Positions 630 to 62,085 are shown, counted from the stretch's first letter. The stretch is 64,000 nt of DNA from Pseudomonadota bacterium (GCA_039186235.1 JBCDAE010000003.1:65934-129933), one strand, 5' to 3'. The notes: a model not told the origin generated them from the letters alone. Program-made: numbers and translations.

Positions 630-1886
630 ATGGCGACATTCACATTCAACATGCCCGATGTGGGCGAAGGCGTGGCCGAGGCGGAAATCGTCGAGTGGCA
701 CATCAAGGTGGGCGACGCGGTTGAGGAGGACCAGCACCTCGTCGATGTGATGACCGACAAGGCCACGATTGACATTGAAAGCCCGGTGACGGGCAAAGTG
801 CTCGAAGTGGCCGGCGATCTGGGCGACACGATCGCCGTTGGCTCGATGCTGCTCGTTATCGAAGTCGAAGGCGAGCAGGATGATCCCGCACCCGCCGAAG
901 AGACCCAGCCCGAACCCGCTGCTGAACCCGAGGTCAAAGCCGACCCGGAGCCCACTCCGGCTCCGGCACCGGCTCCTGCACCCGCGCCAGCCCCTGAGCC
1001 CGCTCCGGCGTCTGCAAAAGTTCTCGCCAGTCCGGCTGTGCGCCAACGCGCGAAAGATCTTGGTATCGACCTGGCCGAAGTCAGCCCCGCCGAAGATGGC
1101 CGCGTGCGTCACGGCGATCTTGACCAGTTCCTCGCCTATAATTCGGGCGGCGGCTTCTCGCCGGCGGGCGCGACCCGCGCCGACGAGACGATCAAGGTTA
1201 TTGGCCTGCGCAAACGCATCGCGCAAAACATGGCCGCCTCCAAGCGCCACATTCCGCACTTCACCTATGTCGAAGAATGCGATGTGACCGAGTTGGAGCG
1301 TATGCGCGGCGATCTGAACGCCAATCGCGGGCAAAAGCCAAAGCTGACCATGCTGCCGCTGCTGATCACCGCGATCTGCAAGAAACTACCTGATTTTCCG
1401 ATGATTAACGCGCGCTATGATGATGAGGCGCAAGTCGTGACCCGGCATGGCAGCGTTCATCTGGGCATGGCCACGCAAACCGATACCGGCCTTATCGTCC
1501 CCGTCATTCGCGACGCGCAGGCGCGCAATCTGTGGCAGCTGGCGAGCGAAATCGGTCGTTTGGCGGGCGCCGCGCGCGATGGGTCGGCCAAGTCGGAAGA
1601 GCTTTCTGGTTCGACACTGACCGTCACCTCGCTTGGGCCCTTGGGCGGGGTGGCCACCACGCCCGTCATCAACCGCCCTGAAGTCGCGATCATCGGCCCC
1701 AACCGCATTATTGAGCGCCCGATGTTCGTAACAGGGTCAGACGGTGTGGAGCGCGTGGAAAAGCGCAAGCTCATGAACATCTCGATCTCATGCGATCACC
1801 GCGTGGTCGATGGGTATGACGCGGCGAGCTTCATCCAGGAGATCAAAAAGCTGGTCGAAACCCCGGTTTTGCTGCTGTCGGATTGA
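630..1886 (+). CDS. bkdB: Dihydrolipoamide acyltransferase (E2) of BCKDH
   Basis: Lipoyl domain (MTDKATIDI), Pro/Ala linker, ASPAVR E3-binding motif, catalytic DHRVVDG. Confidence 0.93.
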   Translation: MATFTFNMPDVGEGVAEAEIVEWHIKVGDAVEEDQHLVDVMTDKATIDIESPVTGKVLEVAGDLGDTIAVGSMLLVIEVEGEQDDPAPAEETQPEPAAEPEVKADPEPTPAPAPAPAPAPAPEPAPASAKVLASPAVRQRAKDLGIDLAEVSPAEDGRVRHGDLDQFLAYNSGGGFSPAGATRADETIKVIGLRKRIAQNMAASKRHIPHFTYVEECDVTELERMRGDLNANRGQKPKLTMLPLLITAICKKLPDFPMINARYDDEAQVVTRHGSVHLGMATQTDTGLIVPVIRDAQARNLWQLASEIGRLAGAARDGSAKSEELSGSTLTVTSLGPLGGVATTPVINRPEVAIIGPNRIIERPMFVTGSDGVERVEKRKLMNISISCDHRVVDGYDAASFIQEIKKLVETPVLLLSD

Positions 1887-1986
1887 GGGACAAATAAAGT
1901 TTGAAATCGGGCTTTGAGTGCGTTGACAGCCTTGGCGCACTGCCTTAGAGGCCCGGCTTCCCAAGAGGCGCTAGCCGCTTAAATGC

Positions 1987-2063
1987 GCGGGTGTAGCTCA
2001 GTTGGTTAGAGTATCGGCCTGTCACGCCGAGGGTCGCGGGTTCGAGTCCCGTCACTCGCGCCA
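1987..2063 (+). tRNA. tRNA-Asp(GTC)
   Basis: Acceptor GCGGGTG/CACTCGC, anticodon arm TCGGC-CT-GTC-AC-GCCGA, TTCGA T-loop, encoded CCA. Confidence 0.97.
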
Positions 2064-2093
2064 CTTGGGACATTTCATCAATTTCGTTGACAC

Positions 2094-2148
2094 TCAACCA
2101 CCTGGTTGACTTTTCGCGCCTTGCCGTATTACTTAACCAAATGGTTGA
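2094..2148. promoter_or_regulatory. Two inverted repeats, probable ArsR-family autoregulatory operators
   Basis: TCAACCA-CC-TGGTTGA (2094-2109) and TTAACCA-AA-TGGTTGA (2133-2148); the second overlaps the ATG at 2141. Confidence 0.65.
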
Positions 2149-2464
2149 GCGAATCGACACTGTGTTCCGGGCCCTGGGCGATCCCATTCGCGTAGCGATG
2201 GTGGAGCGCCTCACCAAGGGACCGGCAAGCGTCGGAACGCTGGCGGAACCGCACGACATCTCACTCGCGGGCGCATCAAAGCATATTGGTGTTCTGGAAA
2301 GCGCAGGCCTCGTCGTGCGCGAAAAGCGAGGGCGCGAACGCATGTGCACGCTCCAACCCCTCGCGCTGATGACCGCGCGGGATTGGATCGAACGCTACAG
2401 TCAATTCTGGAACGAGCGCCTCGATGCGCTGGATGCCGCTTTGAGGGAGGATGGCGATGAGTGA
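2141..2464 (+). CDS. ArsR/SmtB family transcriptional regulator
   Basis: FRALGDPIR, wHTH ASKHIGVLESAGLV, GRER wing; coupled to SRPBCC gene. Confidence 0.9.
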   Translation: MVERIDTVFRALGDPIRVAMVERLTKGPASVGTLAEPHDISLAGASKHIGVLESAGLVVREKRGRERMCTLQPLALMTARDWIERYSQFWNERLDALDAALREDGDE

Positions 2465-2984
2465 TTATGGCAAGCAGATCGGCCCCGCCACGCTGGCTTT
2501 TGATCGGCGATTTGACGCGCCGATAGAGAAGGTCTGGCAGTTTCTGGTGGATCCAGAGAAACGCAAGCTGTGGTTTTGCGGCGGTGCAACGGGAGACGCG
2601 CCCGGAGGCGAAATCGTCTTTGACTTCGACCATCGGCGCCTCTCCGAAAGTGACCCTCCCGAGAAATACGCGGGCGAGGAGGTTGTCACACACCGCGGAG
2701 AGATCTTGGAATACGACCCACCGCGGCGTTTTGTCTTCACATGGTTTGAAAGCGCTGGGGAGCAGCAATCAACCGTTGCAATCGATCTCGCCGCTAACGC
2801 CGATGGAACGACGCAGCTATCGCTTGTGCATCAAGGCGTTGTGGAGCGTGATATCGTGCTTGGCGTACTCGCTGGATGGCATGGTCATTTTGATCTCTTG
2901 GCCGAGGTGCTGGTGGGACCACGCGAGACGGATTTCTGGGTTCGCGATCAAGAGCTTGAGGCTGAGTACGCCAAGAAAATCTAG
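2457..2984 (+). CDS. SRPBCC/Aha1 domain protein
   Basis: FDAPIEKVW, GEILEYDPPRRFVFTW, C-terminal GWHGHFDLL; overlaps ArsR stop. Confidence 0.88.
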   Translation: MSDYGKQIGPATLAFDRRFDAPIEKVWQFLVDPEKRKLWFCGGATGDAPGGEIVFDFDHRRLSESDPPEKYAGEEVVTHRGEILEYDPPRRFVFTWFESAGEQQSTVAIDLAANADGTTQLSLVHQGVVERDIVLGVLAGWHGHFDLLAEVLVGPRETDFWVRDQELEAEYAKKI

Positions 2985-3214
2985 CTTTTCTTGTCTGGAT
3001 GCGACCAACTGCCAGTTTCCATCCAGATTAGGAAACGGCCCAGAGGTAGCAGCCAGATGACACCGAGAACAACGTAAACAATGGTCTGCGCCCAACCGGG
3101 CCACGCGGCGAGGACATCGGCGAGGTAGACCGCAATCAGCACGCCATAGACCATCAGCGCTACGAACAGGCCGAGAATACCGATCGGGATTCGCCAGGTC
3201 GGAGTTTCGCGCAT
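2981..3214 (-). CDS. Small two-TM membrane protein (DUF2842-like)
   Basis: 77 aa, two hydrophobic helices, WLLPL motif; coupled to ygfA. Confidence 0.75.
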   Translation of the reverse strand: MRETPTWRIPIGILGLFVALMVYGVLIAVYLADVLAAWPGWAQTIVYVVLGVIWLLPLGRFLIWMETGSWSHPDKKS

Positions 3215-3795
3215 CAGAGATTTCCGTACATCCGGGTTGGGGTGACTACCGCGTCGAGCTTTATATCGTGCGGTTCGGTCGGGAGCGCGTCAGCGGGTTC
3301 AATCAACTGCACGTCCCACGCCAGTCCAATCGTTTTGACGTCGGGATGTTCCGCTAGCCAGCGATCATAATGCCCGCCGCCTTGTCCCAAACGCTGGCAA
3401 TGCGTGTTGAACGCGATCAATGGGACGAAAAGGACATCGGGTGTTGCGGAGGGCGCCGCAGCACCGGGTTGCGAAAGGCCAAAAGGTCCGCTTTCCAAAT
3501 CGCTTTCGGCAAACGCGTCGGAGTGCACCGCGAAACGCATCGGCGCTTTGGGGCCTTCGAAGTGGGGGAGGGCCAGAGTGTGGCCGTTCTCCTGAAAGAA
3601 CCGCGCGTAGCCCGCTGCGGGAGCTTCAGAAGAAGTGGCGTGGTAAAGGCCGATGACCGCGTTTTGCGGGATGGATCCCAAGATGGGCCGCGGCGGATGA
3701 TTGAATAACAGTCCGCGCACAGAGTCAGGCTGCGCGTTCACGTGCTCCCGGCGGGCGGCTCGCATTTGGTCTCTAAATTGCGATTTGGAAGTCAA
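3214..3795 (-). CDS. ygfA: 5-formyltetrahydrofolate cyclo-ligase
   Basis: LFVPLIAF..RLGQGGGHYDRWL, EPHDIKLDAVVTP; downstream of 6S RNA. Confidence 0.93.
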   Translation of the reverse strand: MTSKSQFRDQMRAARREHVNAQPDSVRGLLFNHPPRPILGSIPQNAVIGLYHATSSEAPAAGYARFFQENGHTLALPHFEGPKAPMRFAVHSDAFAESDLESGPFGLSQPGAAAPSATPDVLFVPLIAFNTHCQRLGQGGGHYDRWLAEHPDVKTIGLAWDVQLIEPADALPTEPHDIKLDAVVTPTRMYGNL

Positions 3796-3865
3796 AACGG
3801 GCCTTCTTGCAGGGATGACGGGACCACCATAGGTCGTTGCCAGAGAAATCCTCTGACGCCGAAAA

Positions 3866-3992
3866 CGTCAGGTGGGCGCCGTGTATCCGGGCCCCACAGC
3901 CGAACTGGTGGACCCAGACAGGGACAGCTCCCATGGATTGCTTATAGCCTCAGGGATATTCAATCGGCTCGTGCCGGGCAGCCCCGCCATCC
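3866..3992 (-). ncRNA. ssrS: 6S RNA (ends approximate)
   Basis: Canonical zapA-ssrS-ygfA position; minus strand contains GAATATCCCTGAGGCTATAAGCAATCCATGGGAGCTGTCCCT and complementary termini GGCGGGGCTGCC/GGCGCCCACC. Confidence 0.85.
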
Positions 3993-4020
3993 ACGCAATT
4001 AGGGTGTATCGCGGTGGTCT

Positions 4021-4560
4021 TCAAGCCGAACTGGGCTGGGCCGCGCTTTCCATGGCCGACGCCGCGGCCTCCGCTTTGTCGGCCAGCTTTTCGAGCGCAA
4101 TCGCAATCGCTTCTTCGTCGACCGGCGATCCGAACAGATCGTGTTGATGCTCGTTTGCCTCGCGCATCTGCATGATCTCTTCCTTGAGCGCCTTCACCTC
4201 GTCGCGCGCGCGTTTCTCGGCTTTTTGAAGAGTTTCGATCTCGGCGCGCAGCTCGGCCTTCTTGCCGCCGCCGCGAGACTTCTCGTGCTCCACTTTCGTG
4301 ACGGCGGTTTCCAGAGCTGTACGCGCGTCTTTCGCGGCCTTGTACGCCTCGCTTTCGCGCTTTCGCGTTTCGGAAAGATCATCGGCCAAGAACAGGGCGG
4401 TGAACAACAGATTGTCGGATTCCAGCGGCGCGCGAGCGGGGCCCAGCTGCGCGTACTTTTCCGCGATCATATCGCCCAGCGCGCTGATCCGGTCCTGCTC
4501 ACCTTCGCCGCAGCGGACTTGATAGGTCTTGGGGCCAATCTTGATCGAGACTTCGGGCAT
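4021..4560 (-). CDS. zapA: Cell division protein ZapA with C-terminal coiled-coil extension
   Basis: VSIKIGPKTYQVRCGEGEQDRI...LLFTALFLADDL; synteny with ssrS. Confidence 0.85.
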   Translation of the reverse strand: MPEVSIKIGPKTYQVRCGEGEQDRISALGDMIAEKYAQLGPARAPLESDNLLFTALFLADDLSETRKRESEAYKAAKDARTALETAVTKVEHEKSRGGGKKAELRAEIETLQKAEKRARDEVKALKEEIMQMREANEHQHDLFGSPVDEEAIAIALEKLADKAEAAASAMESAAQPSSA

Positions 4561-4568
4561 AGGCTGAC

Positions 4569-4820
4569 CTAACCCTCTAATTCTTCGATCAATGTGTCGA
4601 GATCGCGCAAGGTGTCCGATACCTCTTCTCGCAGCTTTTCATGCGCGTTGACCAGTTCCATCACGCGCGCGGCGCTTTCGGGTTCTGCGTTCGTTGTAGC
4701 CGCACTGCCCGATCCCGTGTTTGCGCCCGCAGCGGCGACTACCTCGACCCGCGCTTCGTCCATACGCGCCACCGCGGCCTCTATCCGCTCCACAGCTTTA
4801 TCAATCCGGCTCTCGCCCAT
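4569..4820 (-). CDS. Small coiled-coil hypothetical protein upstream of zapA
   Basis: 83-aa helical ORF 8 nt from zapA start, position typical of the alphaproteobacterial zapA operon. Confidence 0.7.
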   Translation of the reverse strand: MGESRIDKAVERIEAAVARMDEARVEVVAAAGANTGSGSAATTNAEPESAARVMELVNAHEKLREEVSDTLRDLDTLIEELEG

Positions 4821-5080
4821 GCATGTGGAAATACCAAGATTAACCATGCGATGCAAAGATTTGGGCGGCGCTGTTGATAACTGATCTTTGCCCTCATTTG
4901 GGCCGTCAATGGGCGCGTGGTGTTGACCTTGCCGAAACGCTCGGCAATGGCGGGCGCGACGAAATCTAATAGGATCGAATCGAAGCGTTTTTCGGCGTCA
5001 TCGTGACTCGCCGAAAAGGGGGAGATGGGACCTCATTTCCCTCCAGTGACGACCGACATGCTGGAGGCACATTCAAGCTC

Positions 5081-7060
5081 ATGACACTCGACGCCGCTCG
5101 CCTTGGTTCGATGGCCAACGCCATTCGCGCGCTTTCGATGGACGCTGTGCAAGCGGCGAATTCAGGGCACCCTGGAATGCCGATGGGCATGGCGGATGTG
5201 GCGAGCGTTCTGTACGCGCGTCATCTGAAATTTGACCCGGTCCGGCCCGACTGGGCGGATCGCGACCGATTTGTCCTGTCCGCCGGTCACGGCTCGATGC
5301 TCATTTATGCGCTCCTGCATCTCACCGGGTATGAGCGCCCGACTATGGACGATATTCGCAACTTCCGGCAGCTTGGAAGTCCGTGCGCTGGCCACCCTGA
5401 GAACTTCCTGCTCGATGGCGTGGAATGCACCACCGGCCCGCTGGGGCAGGGGTTAGCGATGGCGGTGGGCATGGCGATGGCCGAGCGCCACCTCAACGCG
5501 GTGTTTGGCGACGATCTTGTCGATCACCGCACCTGGGTCGTGGCGGGCGATGGATGCCTGATGGAAGGCATCAACCACGAAGCGATCGGGCTCGCTGGCC
5601 ACCTTCATCTCGGCGGGCTTAACGTTCTGTGGGACGACAACCGCATCACGATTGATGGGGCGACCGATCTTTCGACCAGCGAAGACGTGAAAGCGCGCTA
5701 CGCCGCGACGGGTTGGCACGTTTGTGAGTGCGATGGGCACGACTTCGCCGACATTGATCGCGCTCTTAATGAAGCGAAAGCCGATCCGCGTCCCTCGCTG
5801 GTGGCCTGCCGCACCGTGATCGGGAAGGGCGCGCCGACCAAACAGGGCACAAGCGCGACCCACGGCGCCGCCTTGGGCGAAGATGAAGTGGCGCGCACGC
5901 GCGGGGCGCTGGGATGGACGGCGGCTCCGTTTGGAGTTCCTGAGGATATTCTGGCGGATTGGCGATCCACTGGCGCGGCGGGTCGTGAGGCTTCGGCGGC
6001 GTGGGACGCGCGTCTCGCGGCTTCGCCGCACAAGGATGAGTTCGAGCGGCGCATGGCCGGCGACCTGCCCAACGGGAATGCCATGCAGGACTACGTCGCT
6101 TCGCTTATCGCGGAGCCCGCGAATGTCGCCAGCCGCAAGGCAAGCGAAATGGCTTTGGCCCAGATCAATCCGAGGCTTCCCGATACGCTCGGCGGAAGCG
6201 CGGACCTGACCGGATCGAACAACACCAAGGCGGGCGATATCGGTCCCTTTACAGCCGACGATTACTCCGGGCGCTACGTCTATTACGGCATCCGTGAATT
6301 CGGCATGGCCGCCGCGATGAACGGTATGGCGCTGCACGGGGGCGTGATCCCTTATGGGGGGACGTTCCTGGTCTTCACCGATTACGCGCGCGGTGCGATC
6401 CGCCTATCGGCTCTGCAACAAGCCCGCGTGATCTATGTGATGACGCATGATTCCATTGGTCTGGGCGAAGACGGGCCGACGCACCAGCCGGTCGAACACC
6501 TCGCTTCGCTGCGCGCCATGCCCAATGTGCTGGTGATGCGCCCCGGCGACGCGGTGGAAACCGCCGAGGCATGGCAAGTGGCACTCAGCCAGAAGGATCG
6601 CCCGACCATACTCGCGCTGTCCCGCCAAGGGCTTCCGCAATACCGCTTGGAAAGCGCGGATGAGAACCTGTCGGCACGTGGTGGGTACCGCGTTAAAGCG
6701 GCGGATGCGGCGCGTAAGGTCGTGATCCTCGCGACCGGGTCTGAAGTCGGCCTCGCGCTCGACAGCGCCAAGGCGCTCGAAGAGCAGGGCATTGGCGCGG
6801 ACGTCGTCTCCATGGTGTGCACCGAACTGTTCGACGAGCAGGAGGACGCTTATCGCGCCGGTCTTCTTCCGCAGGATTCGCTCATCGTGAGCCTCGAGGC
6901 GGCCAGCACGTTCGGGTGGCAGCGCTACACCGGCGCGGATGGTCTCAACATCGGTATCGACCGCTTCGGAGGGTCCGCGCCCGCCAAGGATCTTTTTGCC
7001 CATTTCGGCTTCACGGTCGAAGCGGTCACGGCACAAATTACAAACACTTTGAAAGCTTAA
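5081..7060 (+). CDS. tkt: Transketolase
   Basis: SGHPGMPMG, DRFVLSAGHGSMLIY, GDGCLMEG, THDSIGLGEDGPTHQPVEH. Confidence 0.98.
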   Translation: MTLDAARLGSMANAIRALSMDAVQAANSGHPGMPMGMADVASVLYARHLKFDPVRPDWADRDRFVLSAGHGSMLIYALLHLTGYERPTMDDIRNFRQLGSPCAGHPENFLLDGVECTTGPLGQGLAMAVGMAMAERHLNAVFGDDLVDHRTWVVAGDGCLMEGINHEAIGLAGHLHLGGLNVLWDDNRITIDGATDLSTSEDVKARYAATGWHVCECDGHDFADIDRALNEAKADPRPSLVACRTVIGKGAPTKQGTSATHGAALGEDEVARTRGALGWTAAPFGVPEDILADWRSTGAAGREASAAWDARLAASPHKDEFERRMAGDLPNGNAMQDYVASLIAEPANVASRKASEMALAQINPRLPDTLGGSADLTGSNNTKAGDIGPFTADDYSGRYVYYGIREFGMAAAMNGMALHGGVIPYGGTFLVFTDYARGAIRLSALQQARVIYVMTHDSIGLGEDGPTHQPVEHLASLRAMPNVLVMRPGDAVETAEAWQVALSQKDRPTILALSRQGLPQYRLESADENLSARGGYRVKAADAARKVVILATGSEVGLALDSAKALEEQGIGADVVSMVCTELFDEQEDAYRAGLLPQDSLIVSLEAASTFGWQRYTGADGLNIGIDRFGGSAPAKDLFAHFGFTVEAVTAQITNTLKA

Positions 7061-7075
7061 GCAGGAGTTTCTTAC

Positions 7076-8083
7076 ATGGCCACTAAAGTTGCCATCAACG
7101 GTTTTGGGCGCATCGGGCGCCTGGTTGCGCGCGCTATTCTGGAGCGCAGCGATCACGATCTGGACCTCGTTTCGATCAACGATCTTGCGGACACGAAAGC
7201 CAACGCGCTGCTGTTTCAATACGATTCCACCCACGGTCGTTTCCCCGGCACGGTGGAAGTTGCCGATGGCGCGATGGTCGTGAACGGAAAGAGCATCGCG
7301 GTCACCAGCGAGCGCGATCCCGGCAACCTGCCGCACTCCGCGCAAGGCGTCGACATTGTGCTCGAATGCACGGGCTTCTTCCAAAGCCACGAAGCGGCCG
7401 AACCGCATCTTCAGGCGGGTGCTAAGCGCGTCTTGATCTCTGCCCCAGCCAAGAACGTCTCGGCCACCATCGTGTACGGCGTGAACCACGAAACGCTTAC
7501 CGCCGAGGACGTTATCGTGTCCAACGCGAGCTGCACCACAAACTGCCTCGCCCCCGTGGCCAAGGTTCTCAACGACGCCGTCGGCATCGAGCGCGGTTTC
7601 ATGACCACAATCCACTCGTACACCAACGATCAGCGTATGCTGGATCAGATGCACAGCGACATGCGCCGTGCGCGTGGCGGGGCGCAGAACATGATCCCGA
7701 CAACAACCGGCGCGGCGCGCGCGGTGGGTCTGGTTCTACCCGAGCTCGCCGGCAAGCTGGATGGGTCGTCGGTGCGCGTTCCGACGCCGAATGTCTCGCT
7801 GGTCGATCTCGTGTTCACGCCCAAGCGCGACACCAGCGCCGAGGAACTCAACGCCGCGCTCAAAGCCGCCGCCAATGGCGCGATGAAGGGCGTGCTCGAC
7901 TACACCAGCGATCCGCTGGTCAGTTCCGACTTCAACCACCATCCGGCTAGCTCCACGGTCGACAGCCTTGAGACCAGTGTCATGGAAGGCAAGCTGGCGC
8001 GCGTGGTCAGCTGGTATGACAATGAATGGGGCTTCTCCAACCGCATGATCGACACCGCTGGTGTCATGGCGACATTCCTCTGA
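7076..8083 (+). CDS. gap: Glyceraldehyde-3-phosphate dehydrogenase
   Basis: [30 protein letters not shown]. Confidence 0.98.
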
Positions 8084-8106
8084 TCGTTACATAAGGGGCG
8101 CGAGGG

Positions 8107-9306
8107 ATGGCGGCTTTCGAAACGCTGGACGATCTGGGCGATGTGACCGGCAAGGTCGCTCTCGTACGGGTCGATCTGAACCTGCCGATGAAGGATGGCT
8201 CGGCCACCGATGTGACGCGGGTCGAAGCGGTGAAGCCCACCATCCTCGAATTGAGTGAGCGCGGGGCAAAAGTCCTGATGCTCGCGCATTTCGGTCGCCC
8301 GAATGGGCAACGATCCTCGGTGCTTTCCACCAGCATGGTAGTGGGCGATGTCGAAGGTGTGCTGGGCAAGGAAATCATGTTCATACCCGAGGTGTCCGGC
8401 CCCGTGGTGGAACAGTCGATCGGCATCCTGCGGAACGGCGATATCGGCCTGCTCGACAACACGCGCTTTTGGCCGGGCGAGGAGTCCAACGATCCCGGGT
8501 TTGCCAAAGCGATCGCAGCCAACGGGGATTTTTACGTAAACGACGCCTTCAGCGCCGCGCACCGCGCGCACGCGACGACCGAGGGTTTGGCGCATCTCCT
8601 TCCGGCCTATGCAGGGCGGGCGATGGAGAAAGAGCTCCAGGCGCTCGACAGCGCGCTGGGCACTCCTGAGCCGCCCGTAGCTGCGGTTGTGGGGGGCGCG
8701 AAGGTGTCTACCAAACTGGCGGTGCTCGAAAACCTCGTGGGCCGCGTGCAGCACCTGATCATCGGTGGTGGGATGGCCAACACCTTCTTGGCGGCGCGCG
8801 GGGTCAGTGTGGGCAAGTCGCTGTGCGAACACGATCTCACCGACACCGCTTCCCGGATCATGGACGAGGCGGACCACGCAGGCTGCACGGTTCATCTGCC
8901 CTACGATGTCGTCGTGGCGAAGGAGTTTGCCGCGAATCCGGACAGCTTGCGCACCTGCAACGTGCACGAAGTCGCCGAAGACGAGATGATCCTCGATATC
9001 GGCCCGCAAGCCACCGAGGCGCTGGCTGATGTGCTCAAGACGTGCCGCACCCTTGTCTGGAACGGTCCGTTGGGCGCGTTCGAGACCGAACCGTTCGACG
9101 CGGCGACGATGACCTTGGCGCGCCATGTGGCGGCGCTGACGCTTGAAGATTCGCTTGTGAGCGTGGCCGGGGGCGGCGACACCGTCGCGGCTTTGGCGCA
9201 GGCCGGTGTGGCTCAGGATGTGAGCTACCTTTCCACCGCCGGGGGAGCGTTCCTCGAATGGATGGAAGGTAAGGTCTTGCCCGGTGTCGCGGCGCTGGAG
9301 CGATAG
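8107..9306 (+). CDS. pgk: Phosphoglycerate kinase
   Basis: RVDLNLP, VNDAFSAAHRAHA, GGAKVSTK, STAGGAFLEWMEG. Confidence 0.98.
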   Translation: MAAFETLDDLGDVTGKVALVRVDLNLPMKDGSATDVTRVEAVKPTILELSERGAKVLMLAHFGRPNGQRSSVLSTSMVVGDVEGVLGKEIMFIPEVSGPVVEQSIGILRNGDIGLLDNTRFWPGEESNDPGFAKAIAANGDFYVNDAFSAAHRAHATTEGLAHLLPAYAGRAMEKELQALDSALGTPEPPVAAVVGGAKVSTKLAVLENLVGRVQHLIIGGGMANTFLAARGVSVGKSLCEHDLTDTASRIMDEADHAGCTVHLPYDVVVAKEFAANPDSLRTCNVHEVAEDEMILDIGPQATEALADVLKTCRTLVWNGPLGAFETEPFDAATMTLARHVAALTLEDSLVSVAGGGDTVAALAQAGVAQDVSYLSTAGGAFLEWMEGKVLPGVAALER

Positions 9307-28791: not shown

Positions 28792-29757
28792 ATGCTAGCG
28801 CGCCTAAAGCTTCTTGCCGATCCCATGATCGCCGTCCTGCTGGTCGCCACGGCCTTGGCGCTTGTTGTACCGGCCACAGGCGATGCCCGCACGACGGCTC
28901 AAGTGATCTCGAGTGTCGCGATTTTCATTCTCTTTCTAGTCAACGGGATGCGCATTGCGCGCAGTGAAATCGCCAAGGGTCTGGCCAATTGGCGCTTCTT
29001 TGCCCCGCTTTTCCTGTGGGTGTTCGGGGTTATGTCGCTCGCCGGTTGGGGGTTAGGGGCGCTCGCCGCCGGTGCACTGCCACCCCTTGTGGCGCTGGGT
29101 TTTGTCTATCTCGGTGTCCTGCCTTCGACGATCCAATCCGCCACGTCCTACACCACACTCGCCAACGGCAACGCGGCGCTTTCGGTTGTTGGTGCGGCTT
29201 TGATCAACATAGCGGGTGTCTTCATTTCCGCCCCTCTGTTCGCCTTCTTGGGCGGTGAGAGCGGGGCCAACATCGGCCACGAGATGATTGTGCGTATCGC
29301 CGTCATTCTCGTGCTGCCGTTCCTGATCGGGCAGGCGGTTCAGGGGTGGACGCGCGATTGGATCGTGGAACGAAAGACACGCGTTGTCTGGCTTGATAGG
29401 ATTGTGATTGGCATCGCGGTGTATGTCGCCTTCTCCGGCGCGGTCGAAGAGGGGCTGACAACCCTGTTTTCAGCGCTCGATTGGGCGGTGTTGTTTGGAC
29501 TGGTTGTGGTGTTTCTGGTCTTCGCTACCATCGGCGCTTGGTCGGTGAGCGGCGCGCTGGGATACGCAAAGCAAGATCGGATCGCGTTTCTGTTTGCGGC
29601 TGTTCAAAAGAGCGTGGCGATTGGCGCGCCTCTCGCGGCCATTCTGTTTCCCGCCGAAGTCGCCGGCTTTGTGATCGCCCCGCTGCTGCTCTATCACCTG
29701 CTCCAGTTGATGTGGGCGGCGCCACTCGCGACTATGTTTGCGCGGTCGCCGAGTTAG
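28792..29757 (+). CDS. Bile acid:sodium symporter family protein
   Basis: LPSTIQSA, QKSVAIGAPLA, about 9 TM segments. Confidence 0.88.
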   Translation: MLARLKLLADPMIAVLLVATALALVVPATGDARTTAQVISSVAIFILFLVNGMRIARSEIAKGLANWRFFAPLFLWVFGVMSLAGWGLGALAAGALPPLVALGFVYLGVLPSTIQSATSYTTLANGNAALSVVGAALINIAGVFISAPLFAFLGGESGANIGHEMIVRIAVILVLPFLIGQAVQGWTRDWIVERKTRVVWLDRIVIGIAVYVAFSGAVEEGLTTLFSALDWAVLFGLVVVFLVFATIGAWSVSGALGYAKQDRIAFLFAAVQKSVAIGAPLAAILFPAEVAGFVIAPLLLYHLLQLMWAAPLATMFARSPS

Positions 29758-30802
29758 GCGCTTCCGTCTTGCGGTTGTGTCGCACCGACCACAGGAACGA
29801 TAGGCCGATAAGCGTCGCTCCGATCAGGCCTGTGATCGTCTCATTGATGTGATAGCGAGCGGATAGCAGCATGATCACGCCCAACACGATGATCGCCCAG
29901 AACGCTCCGTGCTCCAGGAAACGGAACTGAGAGAGCGTGCCGGTTTTGACCAGATGCACGGTCATCGAGCGCACGAACATCGCGCCCACCGAGAGGCCCA
30001 GCGCAATCACGATCATGTTGTTGGAAAGGGCGAAAGCGCCGACAACGCCGTCAAAGCTGAAGCTGGCGTCGAGTACTTCGAGATAGAGAAACCCACCCAG
30101 GCCCGACCGTACGATTTCTCCTGCCGCTTTCTTGCGCGCCTCGCGTTGTTCAATCACCTCACCAAGGGCATGAACCGCGATGTAGGTGAGAAGACCAAAG
30201 ATCGCAGCGGTAAGGAAGGTCAGCGCGTCGGAGGGTTCAAGCAGCGTCGAAACCCCCGCGATGACTGAAAGGACCAAAGCGATCTCGAGCGCGGGAATAC
30301 TCGAAAAACGCGCCGCCGATTCTTCAATAGACTTGATCCAGTGGACGTCTTTCTCTTCGTCGAAGAAGAACGTGAGGCCGACCATCGAGAGGAACGCGCC
30401 GCCAAACCCGGCAATGCCGATATGCGCCGCCGAAACGATGCGTTCGTATTCTTCCGGATCCCCCAAGGATAGCTCAACCGCGGCCCAAGGGCCGATATTG
30501 GCCGCGACCGATACGATAGCGATGGGGAAGACAATCCGCATGCCGAAGACCGCGATCAAGATACCGATCGTTAGGAAGCGTTGCTGCCAGACCGGGTCCA
30601 TTTCGCGCAGCACCGTGGCGTTCACCACAGCGTTATCGAAACTGAGAGAGACTTCGAGGATCGAAAGCACAAAGACGATCCACAAGACTGTCAGCATGCC
30701 GCTTACGCTGCCGGTGCTGGCCCAGCCGTACCAAGCGGCTAGGCCCATACACACCGCGGTGAACAGCAGCGAGAAGCTGTAGTAGCGAAGCAGCGTTTGC
30801 AT
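29732..30802 (-). CDS. DUF475 / TerC-like membrane protein
   Basis: LEVSLSFDNAVVNA, FLYLEVLDASFSFDGVVGAFA, LEHGAFWAI. Confidence 0.9.
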   Translation of the reverse strand: MQTLLRYYSFSLLFTAVCMGLAAWYGWASTGSVSGMLTVLWIVFVLSILEVSLSFDNAVVNATVLREMDPVWQQRFLTIGILIAVFGMRIVFPIAIVSVAANIGPWAAVELSLGDPEEYERIVSAAHIGIAGFGGAFLSMVGLTFFFDEEKDVHWIKSIEESAARFSSIPALEIALVLSVIAGVSTLLEPSDALTFLTAAIFGLLTYIAVHALGEVIEQREARKKAAGEIVRSGLGGFLYLEVLDASFSFDGVVGAFALSNNMIVIALGLSVGAMFVRSMTVHLVKTGTLSQFRFLEHGAFWAIIVLGVIMLLSARYHINETITGLIGATLIGLSFLWSVRHNRKTEAPNSATAQT

Positions 30803-57685: not shown

Positions 57686-57714
57686 GTGTAACCTTGGGCT
57701 CATGTTGCGCGAAC
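57686..57714 (+). promoter_or_regulatory. ECF sigma promoter (sigmaF/ECF16-like) of YHS gene 1
   Basis: GTGTAACC-N16-CGAAC (GTAACC 57688-57693, CGAA 57710-57713). Confidence 0.7.
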
Positions 57715-57787: not shown

Positions 57788-58342
57788 ATGAAGACTTCGA
57801 TTTTTGCCCTCGCTCTCGTCGCTGGCCTTGCGGCGTGCTCGGCCCCGGCCGAAACCACGGAAGCCCCCGTTGACGCGATGGCGGCGGAAGCTCCGGCTGA
57901 CGCAGGCCTTTACCGCGATCTTGGCGGCGAAGCGACCGGCCCCGTTTTCCGCAAAGCCAAAGCCGACACGCTCGCCGTATCCGGCTTTGACGTGGTCAGC
58001 TACTTCACCGGCGAAGGCGTCCCCACCGAAGGATCGGAAGAATTCACCGTGCGCTATCAGGGCTACGACTATCTTTTCGCCAGCGCGGAGAACGCCGACA
58101 CCTTTATCGCGGACCCGACCAAGTACGCGCCGGCCTATGGCGGCTATTGCGCCTGGGCGATCGGTGCCAACGACGCCCTCGCGCCGGGTGATCCCAACGT
58201 CTACAAGATCGTCGACGGTACGCTCTATCTGAACTTCAACGAGAGCGTCGCTGAGCGTTGGAACGCTGACATCCCCGGCTTTATCGCCAAGGCGGACACC
58301 AACTATCCGACCCACTCGGCCGATGAGCACTACCAAGACTAA
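57788..58342 (+). CDS. YHS-domain (seleno)protein-family lipoprotein, paralog 1
   Basis: Lipobox LAA-C, AVSGFDVVSYF, APAYGGYCAWA, KIVDGTLYLNFN. Confidence 0.8.
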   Translation: MKTSIFALALVAGLAACSAPAETTEAPVDAMAAEAPADAGLYRDLGGEATGPVFRKAKADTLAVSGFDVVSYFTGEGVPTEGSEEFTVRYQGYDYLFASAENADTFIADPTKYAPAYGGYCAWAIGANDALAPGDPNVYKIVDGTLYLNFNESVAERWNADIPGFIAKADTNYPTHSADEHYQD

Positions 58343-60227: not shown

Positions 60228-60256
60228 GTGTCACCAATCGGGCGGGCGCTGCGAAC
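60228..60256 (+). promoter_or_regulatory. ECF sigma promoter (sigmaF/ECF16-like) of YHS gene 2 / Cys-rich operon
   Basis: GTGTCACC-N16-CGAAC (GTCACC 60230-60235, CGAA 60252-60255). Confidence 0.68.
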
Positions 60257-60397: not shown

Positions 60398-60883
60398 ATG
60401 AAACTTCAAACCCTTTTGTTGGCCGCCGCAGTGCTCGCTGCTCCGCTGGCGATTTCGGCCCCGGCTCACGCCGATGGCGGCGTGTTTGTTGGCGTCGAAG
60501 GCCAAAACATTGCCGTGAGCGGCTATGACACCGTCAGCTATTTCCAGGGCGACGGCGTGCCGGTCAAAGGCGACGCGCGCTTCGCGGTCAAATATGACGG
60601 CGCGGTCTGGCATTTTGCCAATCAAGCCAACGCCGACGCGTTCAAGGCCAATCCCAACGCCTACGCCCCCCGCTATGGTGGCCACTGCGCGTGGGCACTT
60701 GGAGCAAATGGTGCGCTCGCACCGGGCGATCCCAAGCTCTACAAGATCGTCGACGGCAAGCTCTACCTGAACTTCAACAAGAACGTTCAGAACCGTTGGC
60801 TCAAGAACATTTCCGGCTTCATCAGCAAAGCGAACGTCGCGTGGGCGGATACGCCCGACGGCAAAGTCTTCGGCGACAGCTGA
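60398..60883 (+). CDS. YHS-domain (seleno)protein-family exported protein, paralog 2
   Basis: Signal peptide AHA-D, AVSGYDTVSYF, APRYGGHCAWA, KIVDGKLYLNFN. Confidence 0.82.
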   Translation: MKLQTLLLAAAVLAAPLAISAPAHADGGVFVGVEGQNIAVSGYDTVSYFQGDGVPVKGDARFAVKYDGAVWHFANQANADAFKANPNAYAPRYGGHCAWALGANGALAPGDPKLYKIVDGKLYLNFNKNVQNRWLKNISGFISKANVAWADTPDGKVFGDS

Positions 60884-60919: not shown

Positions 60920-61297
60920 ATGACAAAACCCGTTTCCCTTACCCGCCTTTTGATGGTCGCTGGTGGCCTTGCCGTCACGACAGCGGCGGCTCCCACCTTT
61001 GCCAGCGGTCAATGCGCTCCGGCGACGTGCACGGTGGCCGCGTGCTCGGCGTGCAGCGCGTGTTCGGCGTGCGACGCGTCGGCCTGCGACGCTTCAGGAT
61101 GTGACGCCTCAGCATGTGCAGCCGCAGGTTGTGCGGCGGCGGCCTGTGCGGCTTCGACCTGTGCAGCCTCGGCTTGTGCCGCTTCGGCTTGTGGCGCGGA
61201 CGCTTGCGCGGCGAGCGCGTGCGACGCGGCAGCATGTTCAGCGGCGGCTTGCTCGGCAAGCCCCTGCGACGCAGCGGATTGCGCACCGGCTGCCTGA
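60920..61297 (+). CDS. Secreted Cys-rich pentapeptide-repeat protein (20 Cys)
   Basis: AAGGA RBS, 28-aa signal peptide, 17 C-x4 units and 3 CSA units; synonymous codon variation between repeats. Confidence 0.8.
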   Translation: MTKPVSLTRLLMVAGGLAVTTAAAPTFASGQCAPATCTVAACSACSACSACDASACDASGCDASACAAAGCAAAACAASTCAASACAASACGADACAASACDAAACSAAACSASPCDAADCAPAA

Positions 61298-61440: not shown

Positions 61441-61486
61441 GGCCCGCAAGACCCCAGCGCTTAGGGGCCTTGCGGGCCCTTTTTTT
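61441..61486 (+). terminator. Intrinsic terminator of the YHS2/Cys-rich operon
   Basis: GGCCCGCAAG/CTTGCGGGCC 10-bp stem, inner CCCC/GGGG, then a T7 run. Confidence 0.9.
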
Positions 61487-61488
61487 GA

Positions 61489-62085
61489 TCAGCAGCTGGG
61501 GTTCGCGCCCAACTGGCGCGCGGTGAGATCTTCATAACTGTAGCGCTGTTCGGGCTCGAAGTCGGGGCAGGGCCGATAGTTTGGGTCTTGCGCCAGACAG
61601 CCCGGCCCGCAGATCTGGATCGCGGTGGGGCCGCGCGCGTCGACACGCCAAAAGCGCCCGCCCGGTGTCGCGACATAGCCGTCCATTCCGCTTGAGGCGT
61701 CGCTGGCCAAATCCTGAAGCGAGGGCACTTCGCTGTCATAGGCCGCGTTTTGCGCGGCGTGGGTGTGAAAGCTGGCAATGGGGCGCATTCCGGGTTCATC
61801 AAAATACGCAATGCCGCAGCTGGCCTCGTCCCCTTGGCGGGTGGGGGACGCGCCCAAACTGCCATCGCTGCGTTCAAAGATGATGCCGCACAGTTCGACA
61901 TCCTGGGCAAAGCTCTGTTGTTGCAGCGCGTTAAGCTGAATGCGCGCGAAGGCTTGCACCTCCTCCTGCGTCACCGTGATGATGAAATCGTCGGCGCCCT
62001 TGGTGTTCATGATCCCGCGCGCGACAATCCCCGCCCAGACAAGCGCCATCAGGATGAACAGTATGCGGGTGGTGCGGGCGCTCAT
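61489..62085 (-). CDS. Membrane-anchored DUF4329-like protein
   Basis: N-terminal TM, ELCG, ASFHTH, PSLQD, GYVATPGGR. Confidence 0.75.
   Translation of the reverse strand: MSARTTRILFILMALVWAGIVARGIMNTKGADDFIITVTQEEVQAFARIQLNALQQQSFAQDVELCGIIFERSDGSLGASPTRQGDEASCGIAYFDEPGMRPIASFHTHAAQNAAYDSEVPSLQDLASDASSGMDGYVATPGGRFWRVDARGPTAIQICGPGCLAQDPNYRPCPDFEPEQRYSYEDLTARQLGANPSC

What the first reader, a model, noticed from the sequence alone, without database searches (positions are those of the whole stretch)
60920..61297. Secreted 97-residue mature protein with 20 Cys in C-x4 periodicity
Seen: after a 28-aa signal, SGQ-CAPAT-CTVAA-(CSA)3 then 15 pentads such as CDASA, CAAAG and CSASP. The mature part is almost only Cys/Ala/Ser/Asp with no Lys, Arg, His or aromatic residues. 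Repeats vary at synonymous sites, suggesting selection on the protein rather than recent slippage. Gene callers may miss or mask it. Inference: an exported metallothionein-like chelator, a disulfide-laddered beta-solenoid, or a substrate for MNIO/radical-SAM modification in trans.
Basis: partly seen in the sequence, partly recalled or inferred. Interest (0 to 1): 0.9.

Follow-up and report, generated by a model that had tools for sequence, protein, structure and literature searches.

The report
Exported poly-cysteine peptide paired with YHS protein
A real but usually unannotated gene encodes a secreted, probably unstructured peptide with a cysteine at every fifth residue; it is always paired with a YHS-domain protein behind a metal/oxidant-stress promoter, so it most likely works as a thiol sponge in the cell envelope.

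Summary
ORF 60920-61297 (+) encodes 125 aa: a 28-aa signal peptide and a 97-aa mature part (A44 C20 S14 D7, no K/R/H/aromatics). Cys spacing is 5,5,3,3,3, then 14 x 5. It is under purifying selection in this frame (pN/pS 0.21). Its run of 15 period-5 Cys is unique in the genome.

The organism belongs to the Erythrobacteraceae.

- **Operon:** the gene is the second gene after a YHS-domain (seleno)protein gene. This pair is conserved in all 18 close YHS2 loci sampled.
- **Fusion:** in cyanobacteria the Cys repeat is fused to the same YHS domain.
- **Promoter:** the operon carries a conserved SigF-type motif (GTCACC-N16-CGAA). The same motif precedes the genome's bufferin/sigF-nrsF locus and several thiol-redox genes.
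- **Maturases:** none is adjacent. The single MNIO enzyme has its own precursor, and no SPASM domain is present in the genome.
- **Fold:** AlphaFold2 gives none (pLDDT 42).

Best reading (about 0.45): an exported, disordered poly-thiol buffer for thiol-reactive stress (copper or other soft metals, oxidants), working with the Cys/Sec YHS partner.

Rivals are a RiPP precursor modified in trans, a sulfur/selenium carrier, and a structural protein.

Related NPC-repeat modules are widespread and undescribed in the literature searched. NCBIfam's 'CefA' model is the only named relative, and the window protein scores below its cut-off.

The parts
60230..60255 (+). SigF-type (ECF) promoter motif GTCACC-N16-CGAA upstream of the YHS2-peptide operon
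   Evidence: One of only two matches to GT[AC]ACC-N16-CGAA in the 64-kb window; both lie before YHS paralogs. The hexamer and CGAA are conserved upstream of YHS2 orthologs while the spacers differ. [quoted passage not shown]
60398..60883 (+). YHS2: exported YHS-domain (seleno)protein family member, first gene of the operon, with conserved GGHC97AWA
   Evidence: NF041384, 142.5 bits against a cut-off of 70; PF04945 YHS. Cys97 is invariant in 32 homologs. The family is described with a GxU/GxC motif (PMC13188914).
60907..60911 (+). Ribosome-binding site AAGGA of the peptide gene
   Evidence: Read directly; 8 nt before the ATG.
60920..61003 (+). Sec-type signal peptide (28 codons, MTKPVSLTRLLMVAGGLAVTTAAAPTFA, cleavage inferred after TFA)
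   Evidence: The M-x(5-8)-[LM][LM]MVAGGL core is conserved in 28 distinct orthologous peptides. No signal-peptide predictor was available.
61004..61294 (+). Mature poly-Cys region: SGQ-CAPAT-CTVAA-(CSA)3 and 15 pentads ending CAPAA (stop 61295-61297)
   Evidence: pN/pS is 0.22 in the mature part. AlphaFold2 pLDDT is below 50. The C-terminal C-A-P-x-A is shared by most orthologs.
61463..61488 (+). Intrinsic-terminator-like hairpin plus T-run, probable end of the operon
   Evidence: This is a consensus match only; two such sites were found in the region against 2.3 expected from shuffles.
57688..57713 (+). Exact SigF motif GTAACC-N16-CGAA before the paralog YHS1
   Evidence: conserved before YHS1 orthologs.
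57788..58342 (+). YHS1: lipoprotein-type paralog of YHS2, with no peptide gene after it
   Evidence: NF041384, 140 bits. No Cys-rich ORF was found in the six YHS1-type loci examined (L140-L142, L145; L143, L144 only).

Best explanation
The gene encodes a Sec-exported, intrinsically disordered poly-cysteine peptide: 20 thiols in 97 small, mostly Ala/Ser/Asp residues. It is co-transcribed with an exported YHS-domain protein that carries one invariant Cys, which is selenocysteine in some family members.

The operon is driven by a SigF/NrsF-type ECF promoter. In Caulobacter and Azospira this regulon answers copper, cadmium, chromate or hypochlorite.

Proposed mechanism: on such stress the cell floods the periplasm with a high-capacity thiol(ate) sponge. 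The sponge captures thiol-reactive species, soft metals such as Cu(I) first, and also oxidants. The YHS partner uses its Cys/Sec to load, unload or redox-recycle the peptide. Co-regulated envelope reductases (DsbD-like, thioredoxin-like) would keep the peptide reduced.

Shown: the gene, its selection, the conserved operon, the domain fusion, the promoter motif and its conservation, the absence of an adjacent maturase, and the lack of a predicted fold.

Inferred: export and cleavage, SigF dependence, the chemical species bound, and the role of the YHS protein.
For: Real gene: purifying selection in this frame only. The signal peptide is conserved in 28 distinct orthologs.

Partner: the gene lies 36 nt after YHS2. 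All 18 loci with YHS2 at >=65% identity, plus one at 57%, carry the peptide directly downstream.

Fusion: 54 of the 120 best homologs of a cyanobacterial YHS fusion protein carry an N-terminal (C-A-[AG]-[ND]-P)n. Most of the rest inspected have NPC repeats of mixed period.

Regulation:
- The motif stands at 60230-60255 and is conserved in 11 of 15 ortholog loci checked, with variable spacers.
- The same motif precedes bufA (DUF2282) next to doxX-sigF-nrsF.
- It also precedes DUF1223, a secreted thioredoxin, a VTT-fused pyridine-nucleotide-disulfide oxidoreductase and a DsbD-like gene.
- In relative L100 the genes lie in one row: sigF-YHS-peptide-DUF6969-bufA-MNIO-DUF2063-DoxX.
- In Rhodobacterales a related NPC-repeat protein has the exact motif and a divergent sigF-nrsF.

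Literature: the sigma-F motif and the metal response (PMC3511200); bufferins as SigF-controlled copper chelators (PMC11626156); MrpX, a SigF/NrsF-controlled periplasmic Met-rich sacrificial peptide with a partner reductase (PMC4436054).

Other support: disorder, with pLDDT 42. Copper context: in Zobellella an NPC-cytochrome gene lies beside copA, 982 bits. TlpA-like and DsbD-like reductases lie beside related genes.
Against: The promoter in this operon has C instead of A at position 3 of the -35 element, and SigF dependence is inferred from a motif.

This YHS subfamily has no characterised function, no PDB relative by sequence or fold, and a single Cys rather than a metal-binding Cys cluster.

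In an oxidising periplasm DsbA might turn the peptide into disulfides.

Several contexts of related repeats point to sulfur or selenium chemistry rather than metals: rhodanese plus YeeE/YedE-like transporter, SoxA/TsdA-like cytochrome, and weak Ext-operon-like hits.

The terminator call is no better than chance.
Confidence: 0.45

Rival explanations
1. RiPP precursor. The Cys residues are enzymatically modified before export, for example to thiooxazoles by the genome's MNIO/DUF2063 pair acting in trans, or by another enzyme. The product would be a bufferin-like metallophore.
For: NCBIfam names look-alikes 'Cys-every-fifth RiPP peptide CefA'. Ortholog L016 scores 34.2 against a cut-off of 30.

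MNIO enzymes are known to act on Sec-signal, Cys-rich precursors with up to 58 Cys (PMC12452194).

MNIO is present in 18 of 19 peptide-bearing genomes against 15 of 26 without (Fisher p=0.0066, not corrected for phylogeny).

In L100 the peptide lies 1.1 kb upstream of bufA-MNIO.

In relatives with NPC-type repeats a cytoplasmic His-rich DUF6969 gene always follows the peptide: 11 of 11, against 0 of 17 for the NP-less type.
Against: The window protein scores 16.6 bits, below the cut-off.

No maturase-like gene stands next to it. The only MNIO is on another contig with its own DUF2282 precursor. No SPASM domain is in the genome.

Among the loci fetched with an NPC-repeat query, MNIO was a neighbour in only one.

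The repeats also flank folded haem and YHS domains on one or both sides, which is unusual for a leader/core RiPP.

The MNIO correlation is equally expected if both simply depend on sigF-nrsF, which is encoded at the buf locus.
Confidence: 0.2
2. Sulfane-sulfur or selenium/tellurium carrier. The thiol arms accept persulfide, thiosulfonate or selenotrisulfide groups handed over by the Cys/Sec YHS protein, in the manner of the SoxY carrier arm.
For: In 14 distinct Thalassospira/Rhodospirillales loci an all-repeat NPC protein follows a secreted rhodanese and a YeeE/YedE-type transporter.

In Oceanospirillales, Mariprofundaceae and Myxococcota the repeats flank a SoxA/TsdA-type cytochrome c domain. 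That domain has a conserved Cys about 39 residues after CxxCH.

Those operons also hold a Sulf_transp protein and a multihaem cytochrome weakly like ExtKL. The partner family contains selenoproteins.
Against: None of these sulfur genes lies near the window's gene. The Erythrobacteraceae context is SigF/bufferin, which is linked to metals and oxidants. The Ext-like and SoxA-like scores are far below family cut-offs.
Confidence: 0.15
3. Structural protein: a disulfide-laddered solenoid or an intermolecularly cross-linked envelope matrix.
For: Strict period of five over 15 repeats. A conserved C-terminal CAPxA.
Against: AlphaFold2 pLDDT is 42, pTM 0.18, with no strands. No pentapeptide-repeat hit appears. 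Orthologs use spacings of 3, 4, 5 and 6 and CC doublets.
Confidence: 0.05
4. Not a gene: a chance open frame across a GC-rich 15-bp repeat.
For: Three frames are open across the region. Public protein sets largely lack it.
Against: The signature of frame-specific purifying selection, the RBS, the signal peptide conserved across 28 orthologs with diverged DNA, and the fusion to YHS domains elsewhere.
Confidence: 0.02

Closest known systems
NCBIfam NF038108 'Cys-every-fifth RiPP peptide CefA' (curated HMM; no paper found)
   Same: Cys at every fifth residue in an Ala-rich repeat. Orthologs of the window peptide and other NPC-repeat proteins reach or approach the cut-off (L016 34.2 bits, L030 33.6, L024 29.3).
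   Different: The window protein scores 16.6 against 30. It has a Sec signal, a YHS partner and no maturase neighbour. The RiPP status in the model's name could not be traced to any partner gene or publication.
Bufferins / oxazolins (BufA1 DUF2282, BufA2, Buf_EGKCG), MNIO-modified periplasmic copper chelators of the SigF regulon
   Same: Sec signal, Cys-based, periplasmic, same promoter type. The genome's own bufA carries the same motif, and in L100 both lie in one gene row.
   Different: No sequence similarity and no DUF2282 hit. The window gene is not adjacent to MNIO/DUF2063. It is a low-complexity repeat rather than a small folded domain.
MrpX-YedY1Z1 of Azospira suillum (SigF/NrsF-controlled periplasmic Met-rich sacrificial peptide plus its reductase)
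   Same: SigF/NrsF-type control, a signal peptide, a low-complexity probably unfolded peptide with about 20% of one redox-active sulfur amino acid, and co-transcription with a partner protein.
   Different: Cys rather than Met. The partner is a YHS Cys/Sec protein rather than a molybdoenzyme. The composition is Ala/Ser/Asp rather than highly charged.
Metallothioneins and copper storage proteins (SmtA, MymT, Csp1) - comparison from general knowledge
   Same: Very high Cys density and absence of aromatic residues.
   Different: Those are cytosolic or Tat-exported, and use CxC/CxxC clusters or a four-helix bundle. Here the protein is Sec-exported, spaced C-x4-C, and has no predicted fold.
SoxY carrier arm with SoxAX (sulfur oxidation) - comparison from general knowledge
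   Same: A Cys on a flexible arm of small residues serves a His/Cys-type cytochrome. Relatives have NPC arms fused to a SoxA/TsdA-type domain.
   Different: SoxY has a single Cys on a folded carrier. No sox context exists at the window locus.

Membership tests
NF038108 CefA (Cys-every-fifth RiPP peptide) | HMM score at or above the curated cut-off (30 bits) | tested here: not met
   16.6 bits, E 0.0054; 15.3 bits in the genome scan. Ortholog L016 reaches 34.2.
NF038108 CefA (Cys-every-fifth RiPP peptide) | Cys at every fifth residue across a repeat region | tested here: met
   Fourteen consecutive intervals of 5.
NF038108 CefA (Cys-every-fifth RiPP peptide) | Association with a dedicated maturase (implied by 'RiPP') | tested here: inconclusive
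   The partner of true CefA is not known to me and no paper was found. No SPASM domain is in the genome and no maturase-like gene is adjacent.
Bufferin-type MNIO RiPP precursors | DUF2282, Buf_6/12Cys, EGKCG or CxxxxC precursor signature | tested here: not met
   No Pfam hit at E<=1. The authors' own profiles (Buf_6/12Cys, EGKCG, CxxxxC) were not available to test.
Bufferin-type MNIO RiPP precursors | Precursor gene adjacent to MNIO (PF05114) and DUF2063 | tested here: not met
   The only MNIO is at C23:29353-30264, next to its own DUF2282 gene, on another contig. The two are adjacent only in relative L100.
Bufferin-type MNIO RiPP precursors | Sec signal peptide and SigF-type regulation | tested here: met
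   Signal-like N-terminus. Motif at 60230-60255, conserved. Regulation is inferred from the motif only.
Pentapeptide-repeat proteins (PF00805 and relatives) | Match to a pentapeptide-repeat profile; right-handed beta-helix | tested here: not met
   No Pfam hit at E<=1. The AlphaFold2 model has no strands and pLDDT 42.
Metallothionein | A recognised MT family profile with CxC/CxxC clusters | tested here: not met
   No Pfam or NCBIfam MT hit. Only three C-x2-C intervals.
Metallothionein | Metal-thiolate cluster formation | not testable with these tools
   Needs metal titration or ICP-MS.
MrpX-type sacrificial periplasmic peptide | SigF/NrsF control, signal peptide, low-complexity peptide co-transcribed with a partner enzyme | tested here: met
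   Control is inferred from the motif; nrsF is present at C23:31896-32528.
MrpX-type sacrificial periplasmic peptide | Methionine-rich; recycled by YedY/MsrP | tested here: not met
   No Met in the mature part; the partner is a YHS protein.
NF041384 YHS domain-containing (seleno)protein (the partner gene) | HMM score above the cut-off and the GxC/U motif | tested here: met
   142.5 bits against 70. GGHC97 is invariant; GxU is described in PMC13188914.

The most novel reading that the evidence does not exclude
Poly-cysteine small-residue repeats (NPC / C-x4 type) are a widespread, undescribed periplasmic module found in hundreds of marine and other bacterial species. They would supply multi-thiol arms to Cys/Sec, haem and sulfurtransferase partners, often under ECF (SigF-type) stress control. 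On this reading the stand-alone Erythrobacteraceae peptide plus YHS protein is a new two-component envelope defence. The cytoplasmic His-rich DUF6969, which tracks the Asn-Pro-Cys motif perfectly (11/11 against 0/17), would be a new enzyme acting on such repeats.
Probability: 0.35. Interest if true: 0.8.

Novelty: new variant of a known kind. Interest (0 to 1): 0.72.

Why it matters
If correct, this adds a third kind of SigF/NrsF-controlled periplasmic 'sponge', next to bufferins (modified Cys) and MrpX (Met). It would also give the first functional handle on the YHS-domain (seleno)protein family, whose role is unknown.

The link is unusually testable: one small operon, a clear partner and a defined promoter.

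It also shows that gene callers and protein databases systematically miss these peptides, and that a large set of NPC-repeat extensions on periplasmic cytochromes, YHS and other domains has gone undescribed.

The perfect co-variation of the Asn-Pro motif with DUF6969 offers a direct route to the function of that domain.

Tried and rejected
- **Pentapeptide-repeat or solenoid fold:** no Pfam hit and a low-confidence AlphaFold2 model.
- **Solved structures:** none by sequence for the peptide, YHS2 or DUF6969. The YHS2 model (pLDDT 65) has no significant PDB fold match, only weak hits to the YHS part of diiron hydroxylases.
- **Radical SAM/SPASM maturase in trans:** no SPASM domain in the genome.
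- **Neighbours of other repeat proteins (L023, L030, L081, L113, L059, L096):** no shared maturase and no NCBIfam 'Cef' partner.
- **Literature:** nothing for 'CefA'+RiPP, the NPCAANPC string, or 'every fifth residue'. One search was badly framed and wasted.
- **Earlier scan notes:** nothing by words or by sequence.
- **Single-sequence protein search with the peptide:** one hit only, because of composition correction and missing gene calls.
- **Profile search of 1.84 billion representatives:** 512 hits, but only about 7 full-length orthologs. Many hits are junk translations of 15-bp simple repeats such as CHAMP and CLALP.
- **SigF motif before the second peptide gene on contig C8:** not found.

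Full report
**1. The observation.**
The ORF 60920-61297 (+) is present exactly as described. It has an AAGGA ribosome-binding site 8 nt upstream. Its N-terminus looks like a signal peptide (MTKPVSLTRLLMVAGGLAVTTAAAPTFA).

The mature part is 97 residues: A44 C20 S14 D7 G4 P3 T3 Q1 V1. The Cys intervals are 5,5,3,3,3 and then fourteen of 5. No other place in the six-frame translation of the 2.94-Mb genome has more than 5 Cys in register at period five.

The 15-nt units are only 60% identical on average, and identical pentads use different codons. The array is therefore old rather than a recent slippage product.

Against the 90%-identical ortholog L015, pS is 0.278 and pN 0.059 in this frame, while the other two frames show pN above pS. 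The protein is thus real and constrained.

The exact sequence, and five of seven relatives tried (including all five stand-alone peptides), are absent from a collection of about 15 billion proteins. The gene is indeed usually not called.

**2. Family and partner.**
The organism belongs to the Erythrobacteraceae; relatives are named Erythrobacter, Qipengyuania, Pontixanthobacter and Altererythrobacter.

I recovered 28 distinct orthologous peptides. All share the signal peptide core [LM][LM]MVAGGL, and most end in C-A-P-x-A. Most also carry a D-x-P-C-G-P-S start and a Lys/Arg-rich linker, which the window's protein lacks.

The repeat unit differs between species: CAASA, CAANP, CKANP, CCAAxG, CNPCAAKK. 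Dense Cys among small residues is conserved, but the spacing of five is not universal.

The peptide gene always lies directly after a gene for an exported YHS-domain (seleno)protein (NF041384, 142 bits). In a 61-genome sample of the genus, all 18 loci with YHS2 at >=65% identity, plus one at 57%, have the peptide downstream. Two at 58-59% do not. No Cys-rich ORF was found in the YHS1-type loci examined.

In cyanobacteria the two are fused. 54 of the 120 best homologs of one fusion protein have an N-terminal (C-A-[AG]-[ND]-P)n of three or more units. Most of the rest inspected have NPC repeats of mixed period 5/6. Conserved gene order plus fusion is strong evidence that peptide and YHS protein work together.

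The YHS family has one invariant Cys (GGHC97 here), which is selenocysteine in some members. No function or structure is known for it.

**3. Regulation.**
GT[AC]ACC-N16-CGAA occurs only twice in the window, once before each YHS paralog. This is the published sigma-F binding sequence of Caulobacter (PMC3511200).

The hexamer and CGAA are conserved upstream of YHS2 orthologs while the spacers differ.

In this genome the exact motif also precedes several other genes:
- a DUF2282 bufferin precursor that lies next to doxX, an ECF sigma gene and nrsF, with MNIO-DUF2063 divergent from it;
- DUF1223, DUF2147, a secreted thioredoxin and a VTT-fused disulfide oxidoreductase;
- a DsbD-like gene, with the C variant of the motif.

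In one relative the order is sigF, YHS, peptide, DUF6969, bufA, MNIO, DUF2063, DoxX.

Bufferins are SigF-controlled copper chelators (PMC11626156). In Azospira the SigF/NrsF regulon centres on MrpX, a periplasmic Met-rich sacrificial peptide, and its reductase (PMC4436054).

**4. Maturases and fold.**
The window holds no maturase-like gene near the peptide. The genome's only MNIO has its own precursor on another contig, and there is no SPASM domain.

MNIO co-occurs with the peptide: 18 of 19 genomes against 15 of 26, p=0.0066 uncorrected for phylogeny. This is also expected from shared dependence on sigF-nrsF, which is encoded at the buf locus.

AlphaFold2 finds no fold (pLDDT 42), and there is no pentapeptide-repeat hit.

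**5. The wider module.**
They occur in several arrangements:
- stand-alone proteins of 100-400 aa;
- after a secreted rhodanese and a YeeE/YedE-type transporter in 14 distinct Thalassospira/Rhodospirillales loci;
- on both sides of a SoxA/TsdA-type cytochrome c domain in several marine Gammaproteobacteria, Mariprofundaceae and Myxococcota. Those operons include an ECF sigma/anti-sigma pair, a TlpA-like redoxin, a multihaem cytochrome and a Sulf_transp protein. In Zobellella the gene lies beside copA;
- fused to a weakly P460-like haem domain in Rhodobacterales, with an exact SigF motif and a divergent sigF-nrsF-DUF6969;
- fused to YceI, cyclophilin and DM13 domains.

The common denominators are export, thiol redox, metal or sulfur/selenium chemistry, and stress sigma factors.

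**6. DUF6969.**
Within Erythrobacteraceae, peptides with three or more Asn-Pro-Cys motifs are always followed by a cytoplasmic His-rich DUF6969 gene (11 of 11). NP-less peptides such as the window's never are (0 of 17; p=5e-8, not corrected for phylogeny).

The window's genome keeps one DUF6969 on contig C8, directly after a second poly-Cys peptide gene of (CCAAEG)n type. DUF6969 is a candidate modifier or handler of such repeats. It has no NCBIfam or PDB relative.

**7. Verdict.**
The most likely reading (about 0.45) is an exported, disordered poly-thiol sponge of the SigF envelope-stress response that works with the Cys/Sec YHS protein. What it captures is not settled: copper or other soft metals are my first choice, then oxidants, then sulfur/selenium species.

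A RiPP precursor modified in trans (about 0.2) and a sulfur/selenium carrier (about 0.15) remain open. A structural solenoid or a non-gene is unlikely.

The only named relative is NCBIfam's CefA model, whose cut-off the window protein does not reach. No paper describing such peptides was found.

Noticed in passing
outside the window: own genome contig C8:20896-21177 (+), with DUF6969 at C8:21360 onward: A second exported poly-Cys peptide gene lies here (93 aa, similar signal peptide, (CCAAEG)n with Cys doublets). A DUF6969 gene follows it directly. There is no YHS gene and no SigF motif nearby.
   Followed up: partly
L004, L006, L008, L016-L019, L022, L040-L057, L100, L124, L138 and others, against the window, L005, L007, L013, L015, L020, L027, L031, L118-L133: In Erythrobacteraceae the Asn-Pro-Cys form of the repeat co-varies perfectly with a DUF6969 gene right after the peptide (11/11 against 0/17). 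DUF6969 has seven invariant His, no signal peptide, and no NCBIfam or PDB relative. It also neighbours NPC-repeat genes in Rhodobacterales, Zobellella, Oceanisphaera, Terasakiella and Thalassospira.
   Followed up: partly
own genome C23:28574-32528: A bufferin-type locus. bufA (DUF2282) with an exact GTAACC-N16-CGAA motif is followed by doxX, an ECF sigma gene and nrsF on one strand. MNIO (29353-30264) and DUF2063 lie divergent from them.
   Followed up: yes
own genome C4:29819, C10:34346, C13:19859, C28:31372, C13:35146: Further SigF-motif sites precede DUF1223, DUF2147, a secreted thioredoxin, a VTT(DedA)-fused pyridine-nucleotide-disulfide oxidoreductase and a DsbD-like protein. Together they suggest a thiol-redox flavoured candidate regulon.
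   Followed up: partly
L048, L052, L063, L064, L071, L078, L092, L112 (Marinobacterium, Amphritea, Motiliproteus): A conserved operon: TlpA-like redoxin (in Amphritea L052 preceded by an ECF sigma and a zf-HC2 anti-sigma); a SoxA/TsdA-type cytochrome c flanked on both sides by NPC repeats; a multihaem cytochrome weakly like ExtKL; a 155-165-aa secreted unknown; and, in at least four of the loci (L048, L063, L071, L092), a Sulf_transp (YeeE/YedE-like) protein.
   Followed up: partly
L067 (Zobellella aerophila) 683-8320: An NPC-cytochrome gene lies between a copA multicopper oxidase (982 bits) with a response regulator on one side and DUF6969 plus a DsbD-like membrane protein on the other. This is a copper-resistance context.
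   Followed up: partly
L033, L051, L058, L076, L077, L079, L089, L093, L095, L099, L101-L104: Thalassospira and relatives have a secreted rhodanese, a YeeE/YedE-like transporter and a 150-270-aa protein made almost wholly of NPC repeats, in one row.
   Followed up: partly
L023:5614-6687 and L030:3804-4754, 5593-6537: Secreted proteins of 314-357 aa carry a (C-x-G-S-x)n period-five Cys array and a C-terminal domain. Two large membrane proteins follow. They score 25-34 bits on the CefA model, and the neighbours tested have no family hit.
   Followed up: partly
L085, L097, L115: NPC repeats are fused to a YceI domain (Poribacteria), a cyclophilin domain, and a protein annotated 'Electron transfer DM13' (Leptolyngbya PCC 7375).
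   Followed up: no
protein representatives P0135-P0173 and others: Many database 'proteins' with period-five Cys (CHAMP, CLALP, CRAVP units) look like translations of 15-bp simple repeats. They pollute profile searches for this family.
   Followed up: no
window 61489-62085 (-): A convergent DUF4329 gene (102 bits) follows the operon. It is syntenic in most orthologous loci. No link to the peptide was seen.
   Followed up: no
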